Source: a virus. From it: a DNA stretch of 64,000 nucleotides. Each line of letters opens with the position of its first letter. Within the stretch, counting starts at the first letter, position 1. Shown piece by piece: positions 47,237 to 56,116 of the stretch. The position numbers were made by a program, and so were the translations under genes. The DNA lies in IMG/VR virus record IMGVR_UViG_3300035188_001379, positions 32,001-96,000 of that record; one strand, written 5' to 3'. The notes beneath the pieces were generated by a model. That model saw nothing but the letters and a program-made list of their open reading frames with translations. It was not told the origin of the DNA and ran no database searches.

Positions 47237-49942
47237 ATGTCAGACAAAGTAAAAGTAGAACCCAAGTCAGGCGAAAATCCTGAGCTATTTATTGTATTCA
47301 GTCATCCTAACAAGGATGATCTAGAGGCCAGAAAATTTGGTGAAAAGGGCTATGCTGCTGAGGAAATTCTCGGAGCATTACAAGCAGCCAAGATAGACCT
47401 TGATCGTGTATATTTCACAGGCATGATCAAGCACGGCATAGGCAGTAAGAGTAAACCTAGCGCAGAAGATATTGAAGAGGGGCGCGAGGAGCTTGACCAG
47501 GAGATAGAAAGAATAAAGCCTAAGCTGATTATTCCTCTAGGTGCGGAAGTGTTCAAACGCATCATGAAAGGTAACATCAAGATGGGTGACTATATAGGAG
47601 AAGTCACAGACACTCCCTACGGCAAAGTCATGGCAAACTATGCCCCAGGCATGATTGTTATGATGGACCCTACCAAGCGTCCTGAGTTCAGAGATGTCTT
47701 CTGCTTGGCCCGTAAAGTCATTGACGACAATCTTAAGTATGATGATTACAAATATATTGTTATAGATGATCCTGAGATAAACAAAGCCATACTTCAGCAG
47801 TATATTGATGAAGAAGCGTTTGATATCGGCTATGACGCTGAGTGGTTCGGCGATAAGTTTACTGACAACGAAGTGATGTACGAGTTTCAGTACTCTTGTA
47901 AGAAAGATAAGGCAGTAATTCTAAACATTAGCAAAGACGGCATCACTGAAAATCGTGAGCTGCTAGACTCTATGAAGCTCATGCTAGAGCATCCGAAAGT
48001 CCGACGCATGGGTTGGAATATTCGTGCTGACGATCTCAGGCTACGGCATAGAGGTTTTAATCTTGCTGACGAAACACTAGCCTTTGACGGCATGAAGGCT
48101 GTGGCTTTCTTTGACTCGAGGCTGAGTAAAGGTCTTGAGACAGGTATCAAATTGTTTACCAGCTACGAAAGATACTATACAGAGCTGTATAGAAAGATGA
48201 AGCAGCACAAGATAGCCAAGGCTGAGATGGCTAAGATGAAGTTTCTAGAGCCTGACGTATACTACAAGTATTGCGCCGGTGACGCTGTAAGTCATCGAGA
48301 GGCCTGCTTGTCTATGATGAAAGACTTTCCAGAGCACCTCAAAAGCTGCTATTACGATATCTATCTGCCCCTGACGCATTATTTCACCGACATGGAGCTG
48401 ACAGGTATCGGTATAGATAAACAGGTACTTGAAGAAATTACTGAAAAGTATTCATCAAAATACGATGAGCTTCGTGAAGAGCTGTGCACCTTTCTCAAAG
48501 AGCGCTTCGGTGTAGAGGATTTTAATCCGAACAGTGCTCCACAGAAAAAAGATCTACTCTTCAATATTCTTAAGGTAGAGCCAGCCTACTATACAAAATC
48601 AGGCAAAAGCCCGAAGAGCAAAGCTTGGTACGACAACCAAAAGCCTCAAACACAAAAGATGTATGAGCCTAGTACCAACGGCAAAAGCTTATCCACGATA
48701 AAATTTCAGCTGGAGGAGCTGTTAGATAAACATAAAGACATGCCTGAGAGCGCGCATATGCTCGAGAATATCCAGGATGTGCACAAGGCTATTACTCTAT
48801 TGCTGAGTGTGAGCCGTGTGGGTGTGTTTGCTACAAAATTCCTCAGTAAAAAAGGGGTTATGATTGACCCTGAGCAGGAATTTGATGACGAGGATGAGCC
48901 TTTGAAGCAGAGCTATTGGGCGGCGATTTGTAATGATGGTCGTGTACATGCAAGCTTCTTCGAGTGCCTCAAAAACTTCAGAGCTAGTAGTAGCCCTAAT
49001 GTTCAAAATCCTGCGTCTAAAGTTTTGGCTTATATTCCAGATATATTCGTTCCAGGCTATAGCAAGTTTACAAACGATGAGCAAAAGAAGCATGAGCATC
49101 TTCTACCAAAAAACATCAGAAATATTTTCTGTACAGGTAAAGAAGATTATCACTGGGTAGAGCTTGACGTGGCTGGTGCGGACTTGGCCATCATGGCCTT
49201 TCTTAGCCGAGATGAAGACTTCATACACGACATCCGTGCAGGAAGCTTTCATGTTACTAAGATGCGTGAGTATTTTAACGACCATACACTTACTAAAAAA
49301 GATGTGAGTAAGTATGTGATCGCAAAAAGTATCACCTTCCGTGTGTCCTATACTGCAGGTTTGAAATTTGCTGCCATCCCTATTCAGGCAGACATCTATG
49401 CAGAAAACGGCTTGCATGTAGGTCTAGGTACTCTCGAATATGCTCTAGAGACCTGGACTAGATATAAAAAATACATGCAGTTCAGAGACAGGTGTACAGA
49501 AGAAGTCAAAGAGCGAAAGAGAATCACAAACGCTCGAGGACTAGTTCTTGATTATGAGGAAACTGATAACTTTGGCATTCTCGCTGGCTGGATGAACGAG
49601 AGCCTGGCCTTCCCTGTAGCAAGTGAGCTCGCTTGGTTTATGTGGGAAGCTAGCGTGAACCTCAAAAACATACTGAAGAAAGAAAATCTCTGGATGAACT
49701 ATGTGTATCCAGTAAATACCGTACATGATGCAGGCTACTGGGCTGTGCACAAAGATCTAACTAAAGATAATTATATTCAAGAAATCTTGAAACATGTTTT
49801 CTGTCATCAAACGAAACTGGCGACTGGCGACAATGTAGGTTGTGAGCTCGCTGTAATGGATCGTTGGAAGGGTAAACAGAAAATTTTTGAAAACGAGACT
49901 GTATGGAATTTCGATAAAAATGTATGGGAGTGGAAAGCTTAA
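47237..49942 (+). CDS. polA: Family A DNA polymerase with N-terminal UDG-like domain and 3'-5' exonuclease
   Basis: UDG-like EIERIKPKLIIPLG; Exo I DAE, II NIRAD, III YCAGD; motifs A DVAGADL, B AKSITFRVSY, C VHD. Confidence 0.9.
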   Translation: MSDKVKVEPKSGENPELFIVFSHPNKDDLEARKFGEKGYAAEEILGALQAAKIDLDRVYFTGMIKHGIGSKSKPSAEDIEEGREELDQEIERIKPKLIIPLGAEVFKRIMKGNIKMGDYIGEVTDTPYGKVMANYAPGMIVMMDPTKRPEFRDVFCLARKVIDDNLKYDDYKYIVIDDPEINKAILQQYIDEEAFDIGYDAEWFGDKFTDNEVMYEFQYSCKKDKAVILNISKDGITENRELLDSMKLMLEHPKVRRMGWNIRADDLRLRHRGFNLADETLAFDGMKAVAFFDSRLSKGLETGIKLFTSYERYYTELYRKMKQHKIAKAEMAKMKFLEPDVYYKYCAGDAVSHREACLSMMKDFPEHLKSCYYDIYLPLTHYFTDMELTGIGIDKQVLEEITEKYSSKYDELREELCTFLKERFGVEDFNPNSAPQKKDLLFNILKVEPAYYTKSGKSPKSKAWYDNQKPQTQKMYEPSTNGKSLSTIKFQLEELLDKHKDMPESAHMLENIQDVHKAITLLLSVSRVGVFATKFLSKKGVMIDPEQEFDDEDEPLKQSYWAAICNDGRVHASFFECLKNFRASSSPNVQNPASKVLAYIPDIFVPGYSKFTNDEQKKHEHLLPKNIRNIFCTGKEDYHWVELDVAGADLAIMAFLSRDEDFIHDIRAGSFHVTKMREYFNDHTLTKKDVSKYVIAKSITFRVSYTAGLKFAAIPIQADIYAENGLHVGLGTLEYALETWTRYKKYMQFRDRCTEEVKERKRITNARGLVLDYEETDNFGILAGWMNESLAFPVASELAWFMWEASVNLKNILKKENLWMNYVYPVNTVHDAGYWAVHKDLTKDNYIQEILKHVFCHQTKLATGDNVGCELAVMDRWKGKQKIFENETVWNFDKNVWEWKA

Positions 49943-49943
49943 T

Positions 49944-50657
49944 ATGTTAAGTTTCAAACTTACAGATAACAGCAAAGTAAGATTTTGCAAAGAGCACAAG
50001 AATACCTTTAGCTTATCTCAAGGATTGCCAGAAAATGGTGGTACTTGCGTTCATGCTACAGAGTCTTGCTTAAAAGTGTGCTATGACGCCAACCTGCGAA
50101 AGCTATATAAAAATTACGCAGCCGTTGAAGACTATAATACGTCTCTGGTAATAAATGCTACCTACGAAGAGCAGGTCGAAGTTATTAAAAATACTATAAC
50201 CAAATGGCGCTTGAACGGAGGCAGCAAGCCTTTGTACTTCAGGATACATACCGGCGGAGAGTTCTTTAATGCTCGCTACGCTTGCGCCTGGGCTGAAGCG
50301 ATTGAGGCTAACCCTGATGTAAATTTCTGGGCGTATACTCGCTCGTTATTTGCTGTGCCTATTCTGGCCGACCTCTCGAATTTAACATTGTATTTAAGCT
50401 GCGATAAAGATAATCACGAAAAAGTGCTCGCTATCTACGAGGAGTATAAGAATTATCCGAACATCGCGGTAGCCTGGATGGGTGATAATCCTCCAGAAAA
50501 CTTTCCCAACGACAGAGCAGTTCTAGATTGCCCTGAAGTGACAGGAAAAACAAAAAAAATAGGCTCTGTGGGAGCGTGCTCTAGATGTAGAGCATGCGTT
50601 GATCGCAGGCTAAAAAGTGGAAAAACAAGACATGTGCGCTTCCCAATCCACAGGTAA
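49944..50657 (+). CDS. Gp88-like Cys-rich (radical-SAM-like) protein
   Basis: C-x6-C-x3-CY, FRIHTGGEF, FWAYTRS, CP, C-x2-C-x2-C. Confidence 0.7.
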   Translation: MLSFKLTDNSKVRFCKEHKNTFSLSQGLPENGGTCVHATESCLKVCYDANLRKLYKNYAAVEDYNTSLVINATYEEQVEVIKNTITKWRLNGGSKPLYFRIHTGGEFFNARYACAWAEAIEANPDVNFWAYTRSLFAVPILADLSNLTLYLSCDKDNHEKVLAIYEEYKNYPNIAVAWMGDNPPENFPNDRAVLDCPEVTGKTKKIGSVGACSRCRACVDRRLKSGKTRHVRFPIHR

Positions 50658-50691
50658 TACAGCACAACTCAAACATAAACCAACAAACAAA

Positions 50692-51510
50692 ATGACTGCT
50701 GAAACTAAACGTAATCCTGCACCTATCACAAGAATCCTTGGCAAAGACTGCCGCTACACAAAAATTGATAATAGGAAATTCTTGTACTATTCTGACTTGA
50801 TTAAAATTGCTAATAAGGATTTTGAAAAAGAGCTGCGTACTCCTCCTATTGTGCAGCGTGTTTCTGACGGAGCCAACAGCCAAGACAGAAAGCTTGTAAA
50901 CGTTACCGACTTCAGAAATGCATACAGGCAAGCTAAGGAAAAGAACAGCCTTAAGAAACCTGCAAAGAGCAAGTCTAAGCCTCACGAGGCTGAACAATTC
51001 TGCTTTCCTTTTGAACCCCTGAAAGAAGGCAAGAGTGTGAGCTCCTCAAAGCTCATGGACACCTCTAGCTCAACCGCCCCACTTGATTTGTCCTCTATCA
51101 AGGTGGATACCTCCTCGATTAAGACAATCTATGAGCAAGGTGAGGCTAAAGACAGTTTGATCAAATCTCAAATTAATGGGATTGTGCATAAGTATGTTAA
51201 TAACCAGATTATTGAAAATGGTTTTACTGATGACTCTGCCGAAGCTTGCGCTTTAAGGCAAAACGCTTATGTGAGTCTTTATACTCAGTTTGACCTGGTA
51301 TACTCTACCGCTCTCGCTCAGTACAACATTGCTATGGATTCTGTCGGGCTTGGAGCAGATGTACGCTTCAAGGGCAATTACATGAACATCCTGGCAGATA
51401 AAAAGCTTCTTCCTACGCTGCTTGAAGTGGCCAAACAGTTCTTCTCTGTCGACCTGAAAAAGAAAAAGAAGAACGTTCGAGCCGACGACGATAACATCAA
51501 CTTAGACTAA
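50692..51510 (+). CDS. Putative antirepressor-like DNA-binding protein
   Basis: Bro-N-like IDNRKFLYYSDL; C-terminal Y-x-x-LY-x-QF...LLEVAKQFF; AC-rich leader before ATG 50692. Confidence 0.4.
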   Translation: MTAETKRNPAPITRILGKDCRYTKIDNRKFLYYSDLIKIANKDFEKELRTPPIVQRVSDGANSQDRKLVNVTDFRNAYRQAKEKNSLKKPAKSKSKPHEAEQFCFPFEPLKEGKSVSSSKLMDTSSSTAPLDLSSIKVDTSSIKTIYEQGEAKDSLIKSQINGIVHKYVNNQIIENGFTDDSAEACALRQNAYVSLYTQFDLVYSTALAQYNIAMDSVGLGADVRFKGNYMNILADKKLLPTLLEVAKQFFSVDLKKKKKNVRADDDNINLD

Positions 51511-51578: not shown

Positions 51579-51869
51579 ATGAGCACCGAAAACAACAACT
51601 CCTCCGCCAAGACCTTCACTGTCAACATCACTGATCGCACTGGTCATAGCTCTGTAGCGAATCTGTCGATCGAGAAAACTGTCGACACGATCGTAGAAAA
51701 CGTCGAGAACAAGTCTCGCTGGCTCTTCATCAACGGTGAAGCGGTAAACTTCAAGGGTGCAAGCTCTCAGTTGTCTACCGAAAACGTGCAAATGCTCCGC
51801 ACGATGCTGGAGAATCTGAACGACCCGACGATCCTGCTCACAGGCACTCTCGTTGGCGGCAACGAATAG
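51579..51869 (+). CDS. Ubiquitin-like (beta-grasp) protein precursor ending LVGG-NE
   Basis: 96 aa; FTVNI, WLFING and ILLTGTLVGG strands; DNA ggc ggc aac gaa tag; upstream of JAB and E1. Confidence 0.8.
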   Translation: MSTENNNSSAKTFTVNITDRTGHSSVANLSIEKTVDTIVENVENKSRWLFINGEAVNFKGASSQLSTENVQMLRTMLENLNDPTILLTGTLVGGNE

Positions 51870-51897: not shown

Positions 51898-51933
51898 CCC
51901 CTGACATCTTACATGGTGTCAGGGGTTTCTTTT
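51898..51933 (+). terminator. Intrinsic terminator after Ubl
   Basis: CCCCTGACA/TGTCAGGGG followed by TTTCTTTT. Confidence 0.85.
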
Positions 51934-51954: not shown

Positions 51955-54021
51955 ATGGAAATAACCTGCCACGAATTCAAAAGAACTACTAAAACTTTTA
52001 TTGACGCCCTGAAGCATACAGAGGCGGCCAGCATTAATCTACCTTTCTACTTATACGGCTCATCTCTTAAAGAATTATTTACACTTAGTCGCCTAGTTTT
52101 TAGGAACGTTGCAAAAATGTATGAGTTCTTGAAGTACTTGCCTGTACAGCCCTCGCAAGTTTCTATGAAGAACTTTCAGCAGCACGCAGGATTTTTGTCC
52201 TCTCTGCTTGATAGCAGCGAAGAGCAAAAAACACTAGGCACCATAGCTGCAACGCAAGAGTATTGTAAGACATTCCAAAGCGTGCGTCTTTTGCCTGATG
52301 CTATCCCAGAGGTTTATAGACCTTTTCTGATTAGAAATGCTCCTATAGAAACCACTGAAGGCGACCGTACATACAGGGCGATCACATGGACCACTGCGGC
52401 AAAGAGCTTACATGAGCTTGTTTACATGGCCTGCGACAGGGATACGATCTACGACTATCTCGACAAAGGGTATTTTATCATGTTTTCTGAGCAGCAGGCA
52501 GCTAAAAATAAGCTTGAAAAATGCGTAGTCGTGGCTGATCGCTACGACGTGAATACCGCACACATTTTCGCGCTGTGCAGGCTGCAGCCTTCTCTCTCAG
52601 AGCTGCTAAAGAACAAATGTTTTGCAGGATATCAAGATGCTGAAATGCTTAAACTGAGGATGCTCAAAAAGCTGAATACTGCACACAAGGCAGCATATCA
52701 GGCCGCCGCTGAGAAAATCGAGATAGACTACCACAAAAACTCTACGCTAATACTGCTTTCAAAGCTGCTAGATGGTTCGGTTGCAAAAACAACGCTCAAT
52801 GAGATTGAGTTTACAAAGACCTCTGCTACCTATGAGCGTATATCTGTTGAACACGATAGCTTACTAGTTATCTTGCAGAACTCGCTTAATTTCAACGGTG
52901 AGTTTGATATCTATGGTATTTGCGATATTCTTGGAAAAGAAGTACAGAAGATATCGGATGAAGCTGAGAGACCTGCAGAAGGCGAGCCCAAGCTCACGCT
53001 AGCAAATCTAAAAATTAACAGCATACCTATTCATTTAGAGCTGTCCTATACAGGCTGCCGCTATATCAATAGTGTGCGTGTAAATAAAGACGAGCTTGGC
53101 GCTGCGGTAGCTAGAGCAAGCTGCTACCAGGATGAGGCTGCGTATAAAGTGTTTCTTGAGACGATACGTGCGCTAAGCATCAAGCATCACGACATCATCG
53201 CAAATGGGTTGGCTGTAAAAATACATAGCACGATTACCCCTGAGGAGTATCGTTCCGCGCAACCTGGACCTAATGCTCCTGCGATTAAGTTTAAGATTGA
53301 TAAAGAGTCTCGCAGAGTTCATCTGGAGATTTCTGAAAATCGTAGCGTGCCTGTACATTTCCAGAGAATTATTAATAGGGTAAATACTCTTAATGAGCGT
53401 ACAAACAATGCGTCATCTTACAAAAAAGATGGTCCATGGGGGCACACAAGAGTTACAAAAAATTACAGGTGGGCCGCAAAAGAAATGGTAGAAATCTTGA
53501 TCAGTGCTTGTACAGCTGAAGAAGAGCATGTCAATGAGGCAGGAAACAAGATTAAAACCAAAAAAGTACTGATCACTGAAAATGATGTAGTCTTGCTGCT
53601 TGATGCAGCTAACGATAAAAAGAATGAGGCTATCGCAAGGTCTAAAGAGTTCATGGCTATGGCTGTGAAAAGTACAGGAGCCACAATGGTGGAATTCCTT
53701 GGAAAACCTGCATACAAAGTCTCAGGCAATCTGCGTACCTATGCGGTAATCATTGAGTCGGCCAAGGTCTACGACTTCGATACGAAGAAGTATCGCTGCA
53801 TCGTAAATCATAACCACTATCAGGGCGCAGGCTATGATGACGTAGCCACCAGGCTGCTTGCTCTTAAGAACGACAGCGTGATGCAGCAGGCGATTGGTAC
53901 ACTACAGGGAGAAGCTCAGCCTCAATATGAGCCTAACGGAAATACTAACGATCATGAGCGCGAAGGATTCTCAGAGTTTGATGTGCGTGCTGCGATAGGT
54001 AATGCATTTAGTGCTGCATAG
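51955..54021 (+). CDS. 688-aa hypothetical protein, candidate E2/E3-like component
   Basis: Between Ubl and JAB; C-terminal GNLRTYAV...YRC615IV...DDVATRLLALKND. Confidence 0.6.
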   Translation: MEITCHEFKRTTKTFIDALKHTEAASINLPFYLYGSSLKELFTLSRLVFRNVAKMYEFLKYLPVQPSQVSMKNFQQHAGFLSSLLDSSEEQKTLGTIAATQEYCKTFQSVRLLPDAIPEVYRPFLIRNAPIETTEGDRTYRAITWTTAAKSLHELVYMACDRDTIYDYLDKGYFIMFSEQQAAKNKLEKCVVVADRYDVNTAHIFALCRLQPSLSELLKNKCFAGYQDAEMLKLRMLKKLNTAHKAAYQAAAEKIEIDYHKNSTLILLSKLLDGSVAKTTLNEIEFTKTSATYERISVEHDSLLVILQNSLNFNGEFDIYGICDILGKEVQKISDEAERPAEGEPKLTLANLKINSIPIHLELSYTGCRYINSVRVNKDELGAAVARASCYQDEAAYKVFLETIRALSIKHHDIIANGLAVKIHSTITPEEYRSAQPGPNAPAIKFKIDKESRRVHLEISENRSVPVHFQRIINRVNTLNERTNNASSYKKDGPWGHTRVTKNYRWAAKEMVEILISACTAEEEHVNEAGNKIKTKKVLITENDVVLLLDAANDKKNEAIARSKEFMAMAVKSTGATMVEFLGKPAYKVSGNLRTYAVIIESAKVYDFDTKKYRCIVNHNHYQGAGYDDVATRLLALKNDSVMQQAIGTLQGEAQPQYEPNGNTNDHEREGFSEFDVRAAIGNAFSAA

Positions 54022-54024
54022 ACG

Positions 54025-54438
54025 ATGAACAAACATTTGTGGACCCAATTGTTGACTGCTTCTGAAGTGTGCGATCATGCCACAGAAGAGCAGGGAGGGT
54101 TAATCCTCAGTAGAGATGAGAGTTTTCTGTTCGTACCGATCAGAAACATACACATAGGAACCATTACAGCAGTAGGGCTGTATGAGACTGATAAGCTAGA
54201 GCTGAAAACAAAGGTGTTTACGAGGATGAGTGAGGGCTGGAGAATGTTCGCCAGCTTTCATACGCATCCTATGTTTTCGGCTACTCCTAGTGTAACTGAT
54301 ATGACGTATCTGTTCCAAGGGTTTGAGAGTAATTATATTTACGCACCCAAACCACAAGTCTTCTCAGCTACGATCTGGGAAGGAGAAAAAAGCAAAACAA
54401 CATTCATACCTAAAGAAAAAATCAAAGAACTACTATAA
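54025..54438 (+). CDS. JAB/MPN+ metalloprotease
   Basis: EEQGGLIL and FHTHP...PSVTD (E...HxH...S-x2-D). Confidence 0.92.
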   Translation: MNKHLWTQLLTASEVCDHATEEQGGLILSRDESFLFVPIRNIHIGTITAVGLYETDKLELKTKVFTRMSEGWRMFASFHTHPMFSATPSVTDMTYLFQGFESNYIYAPKPQVFSATIWEGEKSKTTFIPKEKIKELL

Positions 54439-54441
54439 CAC

Positions 54442-55035
54442 ATGAGCATCAATAAAATCGCTATTGCGGGAGCAGGTGGAATTGGCAGCAATCTTCTTGC
54501 TATTCTCTTCGACTACGGGTTTAATCGCAAACAGTTCGATTATGCCTCTATGGAGGTTGACATCTGGGACGACGACGTTGTAGATGTAAAGAACCTGCTC
54601 CACCAAAACTTTAAGCTTGATGACATTGGTAAGCATAAAGTAGATGTTCTTGCTGATAAATATGTTGTGAATGGTGTCAAAAACAGGATGGCTGAAAAAG
54701 ACTTCAAAAAGTACGATCTAGTCTTCTGCTGTGTTGACAACATGCCGTTCCGAAAGTCACTATACGAGTATGGCTGGAAAGCTCAAAGCAAGCTATTTTG
54801 GATTGACGGTAGGTGCACCAGTAGACAGGGTGCCGTGTTTAATTCAGCCTTGCCCAAGGAAGTTCTACTTGGGTACATCAGTGACAGTGTTGAAGAAGGT
54901 GGCTGTTTGCTAGCTTATGAGAAAGAGCAAAACATCAGTCACACATTACCTACCATTGTGGCAGGTATGATGGTTCAGAATTTTCTGAACAAACTCAGAG
55001 GCGAGCAATCGTTCAAGTCTGTGTTCATGGTCTAG
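54442..55035 (+). CDS. E1/ThiF-family ubiquitin-like activating enzyme
   Basis: GAGGIG, DDDVVDVKNL-x-HQ, DIGKHKV, CVDN...R, WIDG, candidate catalytic Cys155 (GGCL); no Zn CxxC pairs. Confidence 0.93.
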   Translation: MSINKIAIAGAGGIGSNLLAILFDYGFNRKQFDYASMEVDIWDDDVVDVKNLLHQNFKLDDIGKHKVDVLADKYVVNGVKNRMAEKDFKKYDLVFCCVDNMPFRKSLYEYGWKAQSKLFWIDGRCTSRQGAVFNSALPKEVLLGYISDSVEEGGCLLAYEKEQNISHTLPTIVAGMMVQNFLNKLRGEQSFKSVFMV

Positions 55036-55090: not shown

Positions 55091-56116
55091 ATGGCAATCA
55101 TCAAACCATCTCTTAAATTCGCCGGGTCTGAGCTCAACCTCAACAATACTGCAGTTCCTTATATCAAGGAAGGCGTGCAGCGTGCGCTGTTCAACAAGTC
55201 AAACAACCCTGAGGGTGCATACCTCTACTTTCTTCCTGCCTACAAGACAGACGAAGACGGCAATGGTGTTTGGTACAAGAAAGTCAGTGTGCGCGACAAC
55301 TTCGGCACATCCTACAAAGAAAAGTATTTTGTGCCTAGCCGTGCAGCAGACCCTGCCGAGTATTTCTACAACAATCTGCGTATCATCTATCCTGAAGATG
55401 CTCAGATTCGTGATGTGGAAAACAATGGCAAGAAGTTCAAGCAATATCCTTTCTGTGGGAGGATCACAGATCGTGTGATTTACAATGTTGCTTTTGCCCA
55501 GCATCTAGAGCAGGGAGCTTATGTGCTCGACTTGCCTCTTCGTAATGGTGCGGATATTCTGATGAACTGGCTGGAAGGTCGTGATTTGTCAGGCCGTCAG
55601 CGTCTTCCTATCAACGATCCTGATAGGTGTTTGCCTGTGTTTGTGAAGCTTAAAGAAAACAGTGCAAATCCCTGGATGCTTCAGGTGGACACAAGCGAAC
55701 CCGTGGCCTTGCCTGAGCAGCTTGCTGACAGCGATTATCTGTACAACCTTGACGAGGTCCTTGTGACAAAGACCAAGGAAGAAATCATTGCCAAGCTGCG
55801 TGAAATGTACTCTTCAGACGTGTTTGAAGATTGCATGAATGGCTATCCTGGCCTTACAAAGAGTAGCTCACCAGCTCCTGTGGCTGCAGCAGTTCAAAAG
55901 AGTGAGCCTGTGATTGCTCGTCCAGTGATGAACATTCCGAAACCCTCGATGAATGTTGCTAAGCCTGCGGTAGCTGCAGTTCAGAAAGCTGAGATTCCAA
56001 GAGTAAGTATTCCTACCGCAATTCCTGAAAAAGATGCGTACGATATCGGAGCACTGCCTCCTAACCCGATGAAAATGAGCAGAGAAGAAGCCCTTAAATT
56101 TATCAATGAAGCCTAG
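55091..56116 (+). CDS. Putative ssDNA-binding protein (gp32-like)
   Basis: YFLP...WYKK...DP aromatic OB-type pattern, Pro/Ala-rich tail, upstream of RecA. Confidence 0.55.
   Translation: MAIIKPSLKFAGSELNLNNTAVPYIKEGVQRALFNKSNNPEGAYLYFLPAYKTDEDGNGVWYKKVSVRDNFGTSYKEKYFVPSRAADPAEYFYNNLRIIYPEDAQIRDVENNGKKFKQYPFCGRITDRVIYNVAFAQHLEQGAYVLDLPLRNGADILMNWLEGRDLSGRQRLPINDPDRCLPVFVKLKENSANPWMLQVDTSEPVALPEQLADSDYLYNLDEVLVTKTKEEIIAKLREMYSSDVFEDCMNGYPGLTKSSSPAPVAAAVQKSEPVIARPVMNIPKPSMNVAKPAVAAVQKAEIPRVSIPTAIPEKDAYDIGALPPNPMKMSREEALKFINEA

What the first reader, a model, noticed from the sequence alone, without database searches (positions are those of the whole stretch)
51955..54021. 688-aa protein occupying the E2/E3 slot, with a candidate catalytic Cys615
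Seen: no canonical HPN E2 motif. The C-terminal ~100 aa form a beta-meander, then YRC615IV, then helices (GYDDVATRLLALKND). From memory this resembles the GxLRTYxI...LCIV...LLAxD domain attached to DUF4132 proteins, which is unverified. Inference: a non-canonical E2-like trans-thiolation domain with a large substrate-recruiting N-terminus (fused E2-E3), or the dedicated substrate.
Basis: inference. Interest (0 to 1): 0.75.

Follow-up and report, generated by a model that had tools for sequence, protein, structure and literature searches.

The report
Phage cysteine domain docking ubiquitin-like tag
A large protein of an uncultured 184-kb phage ends in a small domain with a never-changing cysteine that is predicted to hold the Gly-Gly tail of the neighbouring ubiquitin-like protein, so it probably acts as the missing carrier (E2-like) step of a phage-encoded tagging system, although it is not a recognisable classical E2.

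Summary
The ORF (51955-54021, +, 688 aa) is real, and Cys615 is invariant in all 115 aligned relatives. It sits in a conserved phage module made of a small Ubl ending GG plus a tail, this protein, a JAB peptidase and a mini ThiF-type E1. I saw that module in nine phage loci from several backbones.

- **C-terminal domain.** Residues about 554-657 are homologous to Pfam DUF7737, the end-domain of bacterial DUF4132 proteins (hhalign 94.9%, E 4.7e-8).
- **N-terminal region.** The first ~540 aa are not DUF4132-like and match nothing known.
- **Bacterial context.** In 13 of 16 bacterial loci sampled, DUF7737 genes lie next to a GG-ended small ORF.
- **Predicted binding.** A complex prediction places the Ubl tail (88-94) on the Cys615-His619 segment (ipSAE 0.75, best control 0.02).

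Verdict: this is a Ubl-handling Cys domain that probably works like an E2. Membership of the E2 family is not shown. This scan reached the same reading before on other phage genomes. I found no paper describing it.

The parts
51579..51869 (+). Ubiquitin-like protein (96 aa) made as a pro-form: ...LTGTLVGG followed by the two-residue cap NE
   Evidence: Translation. GG is invariant in 11 phage homologues, whose tails range from 0 to about 200 aa.
51955..54021 (+). 688-aa protein, the finding itself
   Evidence: 55 homologue clusters at 90% identity and 522 representatives at E<=1e-3. No Pfam, PHROG, NCBIfam or PADLOC family reaches its cut-off.
51955..53571 (+). N-terminal ~540 aa with several alpha/beta domains and no known family. 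The most conserved motifs are YDYLDKG (166-172) and the stretch 372-417, which includes the RASC390 motif.
   Evidence: No DUF4132 signal by HMMER or hhalign. No PDB Foldseek match.
53122..53124 (+). Codon of Cys390, the second conserved cysteine (at least 90% across 115 relatives)
53614..53925 (+). C-terminal DUF7737-like domain (residues 554-657): helix, beta-meander, Cys615, helix ATRLLALKND
   Evidence: Weak DUF7737 hits in 38 of 39 members. 17.4 bits against a cut-off of 27. hhalign 94.9%, E 4.7e-8 against 20 bacterial DUF7737 domains. Domain model pLDDT 90.
53797..53799 (+). Codon of Cys615, the candidate nucleophile
   Evidence: Invariant in 115 of 115 relatives. Aligned with the Cys of bacterial YLCIV. 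Lies in the predicted Ubl interface.
54025..54438 (+). JAB/JAMM metallopeptidase (137 aa) with E...HTHP-x6-S-x2-D intact. Presumed to remove the cap after GG.
   Evidence: Pfam Prok-JAB 4.9e-7. Motif read.
54442..55035 (+). Minimal ThiF-type E1 (197 aa) with invariant Cys155 (EEGGC)
   Evidence: Pfam ThiF 7.2e-20. Alignment of six phage E1s. Best NCBIfam hit is PRTRC-system ThiF at 7e-13, below its cut-off.

Best explanation
The 688-aa protein is the Ubl-accepting component of a phage-encoded ubiquitin-like conjugation module. Proposed order of events: the JAB peptidase removes the NE cap and exposes the Gly-Gly end of the 96-aa Ubl. The mini E1 then adenylates that end, possibly passing it through its own invariant Cys155. 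The C-terminal DUF7737-like domain of the 688-aa protein docks the Ubl through its conserved helix (ATRLLALKND) and takes the Ubl's carboxyl end onto Cys615 as a thioester, which is an E2-like step. The phage-specific N-terminal ~540 aa then chooses the acceptor, either a replication or repair protein or the protein itself. Shown here: the gene module, the homology to DUF7737, the invariance of the Cys, and a controlled prediction of Ubl binding at the Cys segment. Inferred: the thioester, the order of steps and the target.
Confidence: 0.45

Rival explanations
1. The DUF7737-like domain is a non-catalytic Ubl-docking domain, comparable to a UEV or other Ub-binding domain. The 688-aa protein would then be the effector regulated by the Ubl, or its dedicated conjugation substrate. 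The E1 alone would transfer the Ubl, as in E2-less SAMP/UbaA or Urm1/Uba4 systems.
For: Binding is what the complex prediction supports; chemistry is not tested by it. The best fold hits include the non-catalytic UEV and RWD domains VPS37A, Vps23, Tsg101 and RNF25. A DUF7737-like domain is fused to a JAB peptidase in L005, where docking the Ubl would be enough. The E1 has its own invariant Cys155. No HPN or oxyanion residue is conserved.
Against: A Cys that is strictly invariant across 115 diverse sequences, and replaced only by Ser in bacterial variants, is unusual for a purely structural residue. The Cys segment itself lies in the predicted interface next to the Ubl tail.
Confidence: 0.3
2. 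The module is a sulfur-carrier system of the ThiS/MoaD/CysO/TtuB type. The Ubl would be converted to a thiocarboxylate, and the 688-aa protein would be the sulfur-using enzyme, with Cys615 and/or Cys390 handling persulfide. The product might be a thiolated nucleic acid or cofactor.
For: A GG-ended small protein, a ThiF-type E1 and a JAB that uncaps the GG is also the layout of CysO/Mec+ and related sulfur-carrier clusters (Iyer et al. 2006, PMC1779556). The E1's NCBIfam hits are ThiF/MoeB types. The Ubl tail inserting into a partner's pocket resembles MoaD-MoaE; that comparison is from established knowledge and was not tested here.
Against: No rhodanese was found in the phage genome. The E1 has no rhodanese domain or CxxC pairs. 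The 688-aa protein has no PP-loop, Fe-S or other sulfur-insertion signature and no Pfam match. In some phages the Ubl is fused to 95-200-aa extensions, which looks like a ubiquitin-fusion precursor.
Confidence: 0.1
3. The protein is mainly a replication or repair factor. Its place beside Ubl, JAB and E1 reflects co-regulation within the replication module, not a shared pathway.
For: It always lies among replication and nucleotide-metabolism genes: DnaB, PolA-UDG, GP88 and RecA in one lineage, and RNR, RecU and PolA in the others.
Against: The four genes stay together while the surrounding genes change between phage backbones. The predicted binding and the parallel Ubl pairing in bacteria argue for a direct link.
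Confidence: 0.08

Closest known systems
Pfam DUF7737 (PF24879), the C-terminal domain of bacterial DUF4132 proteins such as D. radiodurans DRA0166
   Same: The domains are homologous (hhalign 94.9%, E 4.7e-8). They share the motifs G-x-L-R-T-Y, Y-x-C-I-V and LLA-x-(N)D, sit at the very C-terminus of a 600-1700-aa protein, and are paired with a small GG-ended protein.
   Different: The phage domain scores below Pfam's cut-off (17.4 against 27 bits). The upstream ~540 aa are not DUF4132. The phage module adds a dedicated E1 and a JAB, and its Ubl is capped. DUF7737 itself has no known function or solved structure.
UBC/E2 and UEV/RWD fold (eukaryotic E2s, Vps23/Tsg101 UEV, bacterial BilB and BubB)
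   Different: No HPN motif, no match to UQ_con or Prok-E2 HMMs, no significant Foldseek or VIA score, and fusion to a 540-aa unknown region.
Bacterial Ubl-conjugation operons: Bil (BilABCD), Bub, CBASS Cap2/Cap3, and the PRTRC cassette
   Same: All combine an E1, a JAB-type peptidase and a GG-ended Ubl. The E1 here is nearest to PRTRC-type ThiF and weakly matches Cap2 E1-E2 models. The Bub pathways show that the catalytic residues can vary between Cys and Ser.
   Different: This module is encoded by phages, inside their replication modules, and not by hosts as a defence. It has no recognisable E2, and its E1 is only 197 aa.
Lambda/T1 tail-assembly Ubl (TAPI) with JAB-NlpC/P60 (TAPK)
   Same: Phage-encoded Ubl plus JAB (Iyer et al. 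2006).
   Different: That system is in the tail module and has no E1 and no DUF7737-like protein.

Membership tests
UBC/E2 superfamily (Pfam UQ_con, Prok-E2_A-E) | Sequence match to an E2 family model | tested here: not met
   No E2 family was found among Pfam hits of the protein or of 39 relatives at E<=1. UQ_con and Prok-E2_A/B/D gave no match in the whole phage genome.
UBC/E2 superfamily (Pfam UQ_con, Prok-E2_A-E) | UBC alpha/beta sandwich fold | tested here: inconclusive
UBC/E2 superfamily (Pfam UQ_con, Prok-E2_A-E) | HPN motif upstream of the catalytic Cys | tested here: not met
   No HPN in the protein. No Asn is conserved across the family near the Cys.
UBC/E2 superfamily (Pfam UQ_con, Prok-E2_A-E) | Conserved Cys in the segment between the beta-meander and the following helix | tested here: met
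   Cys615 follows strands 577-614 and precedes helix 628-638 in both models. It is invariant in 115 of 115 relatives.
UBC/E2 superfamily (Pfam UQ_con, Prok-E2_A-E) | E1-dependent Ubl~Cys thioester | not testable with these tools
   This needs biochemistry. Only predicted docking of the Ubl tail at the Cys segment is available.
DUF7737 (PF24879) | Score over Pfam's gathering cut-off | tested here: not met
   17.4 bits against a cut-off of 27. 38 of 39 relatives match only weakly, best E 8e-4.
DUF7737 (PF24879) | Profile-level homology with the conserved Cys aligned | tested here: met
   The phage C-terminal HMM picked out all six full-length bacterial DUF7737 proteins. hhalign gave 94.9%, E 4.7e-8, with YxCIV aligned to YLCIV. 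With full-length profiles, 86 columns aligned.
DUF7737 (PF24879) | Usual architecture: DUF4132 upstream of DUF7737 | tested here: not met
   PF13569 gave no match in the phage genome at E<=10. HMMER and hhalign align only the C-terminal domain. The atlas shape match to DUF4132 proteins is only TM 0.27-0.28.
DUF7737 (PF24879) | Neighbouring small protein ending in Gly-Gly | tested here: met
   Phage. Bacteria: 13 of 16 loci.
Prokaryotic Ubl-conjugation operon (Bil/Bub/Cap2-Cap3 type) | E1 adenylating enzyme, JAB peptidase and GG-ended Ubl in one operon | tested here: met
   Conserved in eight further phage loci.
Prokaryotic Ubl-conjugation operon (Bil/Bub/Cap2-Cap3 type) | Recognisable E2 subunit or domain | tested here: not met
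   The DUF7737-like domain is the only candidate.

The most novel reading that the evidence does not exclude
DUF7737 would be a previously unrecognised class of Ubl-carrier domain, analogous to E2 and at most very distantly related to UBC. It would be shared by a widespread bacterial Ubl/DUF4132 system, whose Deinococcus member is induced when the DNA-damage repressor DdrO is depleted, and by many phages that have attached it to their own N-terminal module. In the phage protein the two conserved cysteines (Cys615, then Cys390) could form a thioester relay, making it a self-contained E2-E3 that tags replication or repair proteins during infection.
Probability: 0.3. Interest if true: 0.85.

Novelty: new variant of a known kind. 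Interest (0 to 1): 0.7.

Why it matters
Bacterial ubiquitin-like conjugation (Cap2/Cap3, Bil, Bub) has so far been described as host defence. This module is a complete-looking Ubl/E1/JAB set encoded by phages themselves, inside their replication modules. Its only candidate for the carrier step is a domain with no known function or structure. The same domain ends the widespread bacterial DUF4132 (MolR-like) proteins, which also sit beside GG-ended small proteins. One of those, D. radiodurans drA0165-drA0166, is switched on when the DNA-damage repressor DdrO is depleted. Showing what the Cys domain does would give a function to two orphan Pfam families. It could add a new kind of E2-like enzyme and would open the question of what phages tag during replication.

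Tried and rejected
- **Structure searches, whole model.** Foldseek against the PDB found nothing at E<=1e-3.
- **PDB by sequence.** Profiles A1 and A3 gave only chance-level hits.
- **Cultured phages and plasmids.** tblastn against 50,697 GenBank phages gave no match. Against plasmids it gave only chance hits to trehalase genes.
- **Bacterial relatives by word-indexed search.** Searching with the C-terminal alignment for longer proteins returned phage relatives only and no bacterial DUF7737.
- **Genome scan with the motif [AV][STA]R[LI][LY]ALKND.** No relative in 185,579 species genomes. The phage form was therefore not found in those bacterial genomes by this narrow pattern.
- **How the bacterial DUF7737 loci were reached.** I scanned for a universal 16S rRNA primer-site motif only to obtain genome handles, then ran family searches.
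- **DUF4132 in the N-terminal region.** Rejected at the sequence level.
- **ESM Atlas on residues 1-540.** No usable feature hits, and the Atlas's own model is poor (pLDDT 0.36), so its shape rows were disregarded.
- **Homology between phage and bacterial Ubls.** Not detectable (hhalign 0.7%).
- **Ubl extensions.** Looked in the window for a homologue of the long post-GG extensions seen in L005, L007 and L159. None was found.
- **PADLOC and NCBIfam.** Nothing for the 688-aa protein.

Full report
**Where it is.** The window is bases 32001-96000 of a 184,465-bp IMG/VR virus record estimated 94% complete. The finding is an ATG-started ORF at 51955-54021 (+) encoding 688 aa. Its neighbours form a phage replication and recombination block:
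- SMC-like ATPase, SF2 helicase, Toprim protein and DnaB-like helicase
- a PolA with an N-terminal UDG domain, then a GP88-family protein
- a 297-aa protein and a 96-aa protein
- the 688-aa protein
- a 137-aa Prok-JAB peptidase (E 4.9e-7) and a 197-aa ThiF-type E1 (E 7.2e-20)
- a 341-aa protein and a RecA/UvsX-like recombinase

**Check of the observation.**
- There is no HPN tripeptide, and Cys615 (TGC, 53797-53799) lies in KKYRCIVNHNHY.
- AlphaFold2 models of the whole protein (pLDDT 83) and of residues 540-688 (pLDDT 90, pTM 0.82) agree. Both show a helix at 554-574, strands at 577-581, 584-590, 595-599, 605-607 and 613-614, then Cys615, a loop, and helices 628-638 and 640-643.
- The protein has 55 homologue clusters in metagenomes, on contigs of up to 215 kb.
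- An exhaustive profile search found 522 representatives at E<=1e-3 and 350 at E<=1e-10.
- Cys615 is invariant in 39 close relatives and in 115 relatives down to about 25% identity. Across those 115 only Y596, C615 and D640 are invariant.
- A second Cys, Cys390 in an RASC motif, is conserved in at least 90% of them.

**The module.** The 96-aa protein upstream ends ...LTGTLVGG-NE. Its phage homologues all keep the GG. What follows the GG ranges from nothing (L009), through 1-17 residues, to whole extra domains of 95-200 aa (L005, L007, L159).

I examined eight further phage loci that carry relatives of the 688-aa protein.
- L002, L003, L005 and L161 share this phage's DnaB/PolA-UDG/GP88 backbone.
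- L007, L159, L160 and L009 have a different RNR/RecU/PolA backbone.
- Every locus with enough flank contains the Ubl, the large protein and a roughly 195-aa ThiF, although gene order varies. In L005 the ThiF gene was called only as a 129-aa C-terminal part with no Pfam hit.
- JAB is present wherever the Ubl is capped. None was seen in L009, where the Ubl ends in a free GG, but that contig stops soon after.

The JAB has an intact E...HxH...S..D site. The E1 has one invariant Cys, Cys155, in six phage sequences. The phage genome gave no match to UQ_con, Prok-E2_A, Prok-E2_B, Prok-E2_D or rhodanese. The 'E2 slot' description is therefore fair: no recognised E2 is present.

**What the C-terminal domain is.** No Pfam family reaches its threshold, but 38 of 39 relatives give a weak DUF7737 (PF24879) hit on residues 574-621 (17.4 bits against a cut-off of 27). 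The two nearest shapes in the ESM Atlas are DUF4132+DUF7737 proteins, at low TM (0.27-0.28).

To test this properly I collected 20 bacterial DUF7737 domains from Actinomycetota and Bacteroidota genomes.
- An HMM of the phage domain ranked all six full-length bacterial DUF7737 proteins first among the ORFs of their loci, with 'vkGklrtY...yiCiV' aligned to 'VKGKIRTY...YLCIV'.
- hhalign of the two alignments gave 94.9% probability and E 4.7e-8, with the cysteines aligned.
- With full-length profiles, 86 columns aligned, covering the whole domain including the LLA-x-D helix.

By contrast, the N-terminal ~540 aa show no DUF4132 signal, no PDB Foldseek match and no family in any library. They are specific to the phage family. 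Three unnamed viral proteins in BFVD are the only structural relatives.

**Is it an E2?**
- By sequence it is not.
- These values lie in the range the tool itself calls a common arrangement. Foldseek found nothing. The wide search with the isolated domain was dominated by helix hairpins.

The topology, and the position of the Cys after the meander, are UBC-like. Family membership is not shown.

**Evidence that the domain handles the Ubl.**
1. *Predicted complex.* The domain (residues 540-664) and the mature Ubl (11-94) were folded together. The result supports binding: ipSAE 0.75 (runs 0.75, 0.49, 0.81) against 0.02 for the best of three controls. At least 83% of contacts are shared between runs and the partner's pLDDT is at least 77. 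In the tool's calibration this mark was reached by 58 of 80 solved complexes and 2 of 110 mismatched pairs. The confident interface comprises domain residues 558-574, 615-619, 621-626 and 628-650, and Ubl residues 16-23, 45-57 and 84-94. That set includes the whole LTGTLVGG tail. The lowest-error pairs link Leu91 to Ile616, Val617 and the conserved helix. No DUF7737 structure exists, so this is not recall of a solved complex. It is still a prediction, not a measurement.
2. *Domain fusion.* In L005 the JAB protein carries its own N-terminal DUF7737-like domain, with the Cys retained (E 5.6e-11).
3. *Bacterial pairing.* A small ORF ending ...KLxPLVGG lies beside the DUF7737 gene in 13 of 16 sampled bacterial loci with the Cys form. 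DUF7737 is the only part shared between phage and bacterial proteins, so the Ubl link most simply maps to this domain.
4. *Ser variants.* Two of the 20 bacterial domains have Ser in place of the Cys. In one of those loci (L143) the adjacent Ubl-like ORF ends AGSYW and not GG. This is a single case, but it fits a functional coupling between the nucleophile and the GG end. Ser/oxyester chemistry has been shown for Bub E1/E2 enzymes.

**Mechanism proposed (confidence 0.45).** JAB uncaps the Ubl and E1 adenylates it. The DUF7737-like domain then docks it and receives it on Cys615. The N-terminal region selects the acceptor. The rivals are:
- a non-catalytic docking domain on an effector or substrate, with an E2-less transfer (0.30)
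- sulfur-carrier chemistry (0.10)
- mere co-location within the replication module (0.08)

**What is known.** The literature searched holds no paper that mentions DUF7737. Only incidental mentions of DUF4132 exist. One of them reports that the D. radiodurans drA0165-drA0166 operon, where DRA0166 is a DUF4132 protein, is strongly induced on DdrO depletion. The known phage Ubl/JAB pair is the lambda/T1 tail-assembly TAPI/TAPK system, which has no E1 and lies in a different module. I found no description of a phage-encoded Ubl/E1/JAB module with a DUF7737-like protein.

**Earlier notes of this scan.** Unchecked AI notes had reached the same reading on two other phage genomes and had noted the bacterial Ubl-DUF4132 pairing. 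I re-tested here the DUF7737 homology, the invariance of the Cys, the bacterial pairing and the E1 Cys.

**Verdict.** It is best classed as a new variant of the prokaryotic Ubl-conjugation theme. Interest 0.7.

Noticed in passing
L005:9070-9903 (+): In a related phage the JAB peptidase (277 aa) carries an N-terminal second DUF7737-like domain with the Cys retained (KGRLRNYAVEID...RFCLSD...LLLMLKAD), E 5.6e-11 against the phage-domain HMM. The ThiF gene beside it was called only as a 129-aa C-terminal part.
   Followed up: partly
L005:6375-6923, L007:9351-10169, L159:8048-8758: In three phages the Ubl is the N-terminal part of a longer protein. The GG is followed by 95-200 further residues, like ubiquitin-fusion precursors. 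The L007 and L159 extensions are related to each other, and none has a homologue in this window.
   Followed up: partly
L143:6045-6488 (-) and L143:830-5983 (-): A Bacteroidota 1,716-aa DUF7737 protein has Ser in place of the conserved Cys (YLSIL). The Ubl-like ORF just upstream ends ...LAGSYW and not GG. A 112-aa open frame carrying a stand-alone Ser-type DUF7737 occurs in another Bacteroidota genome (L144:5305-5643).
   Followed up: partly
window 51898-51933: A hairpin (CCCCTGACA ... TGTCAGGGG) followed by TTTCTTTT lies between the Ubl stop codon and the start of the 688-aa gene. It looks like an intrinsic terminator or attenuator that could set the Ubl-to-enzyme ratio.
   Followed up: no
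window 54442-55035: The mini E1's best NCBIfam match is the PRTRC-system ThiF (TIGR03736, E 7e-13, below its cut-off), the E1 of a mobile-element Ubl cassette. It also weakly matches PADLOC Cap2-type E1-E2 models over its first ~70 residues.
   Followed up: no
window 55091-56116 and 50617-51510: A 341-aa protein between the E1 and RecA, and a 230-300-aa protein upstream of the Ubl, have no family match. Both keep their positions in the related phages L002 and L003, and the 341-aa one also in L005. They are possible partners or targets of the module.
   Followed up: no
L007:6617-6982, L009:6640-7020, L159:5645-6004, L160:5576-5980: In the RNR/RecU-type phages a conserved 119-134-aa protein of unknown family (…GLWL…) always lies directly upstream of the large DUF7737-like gene. 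It is absent from this window's lineage.
   Followed up: no
window 47237-49942: The DNA polymerase is a PolA fused to an N-terminal UDG-superfamily domain. The fusion is conserved in L002, L003 and L005.
   Followed up: no
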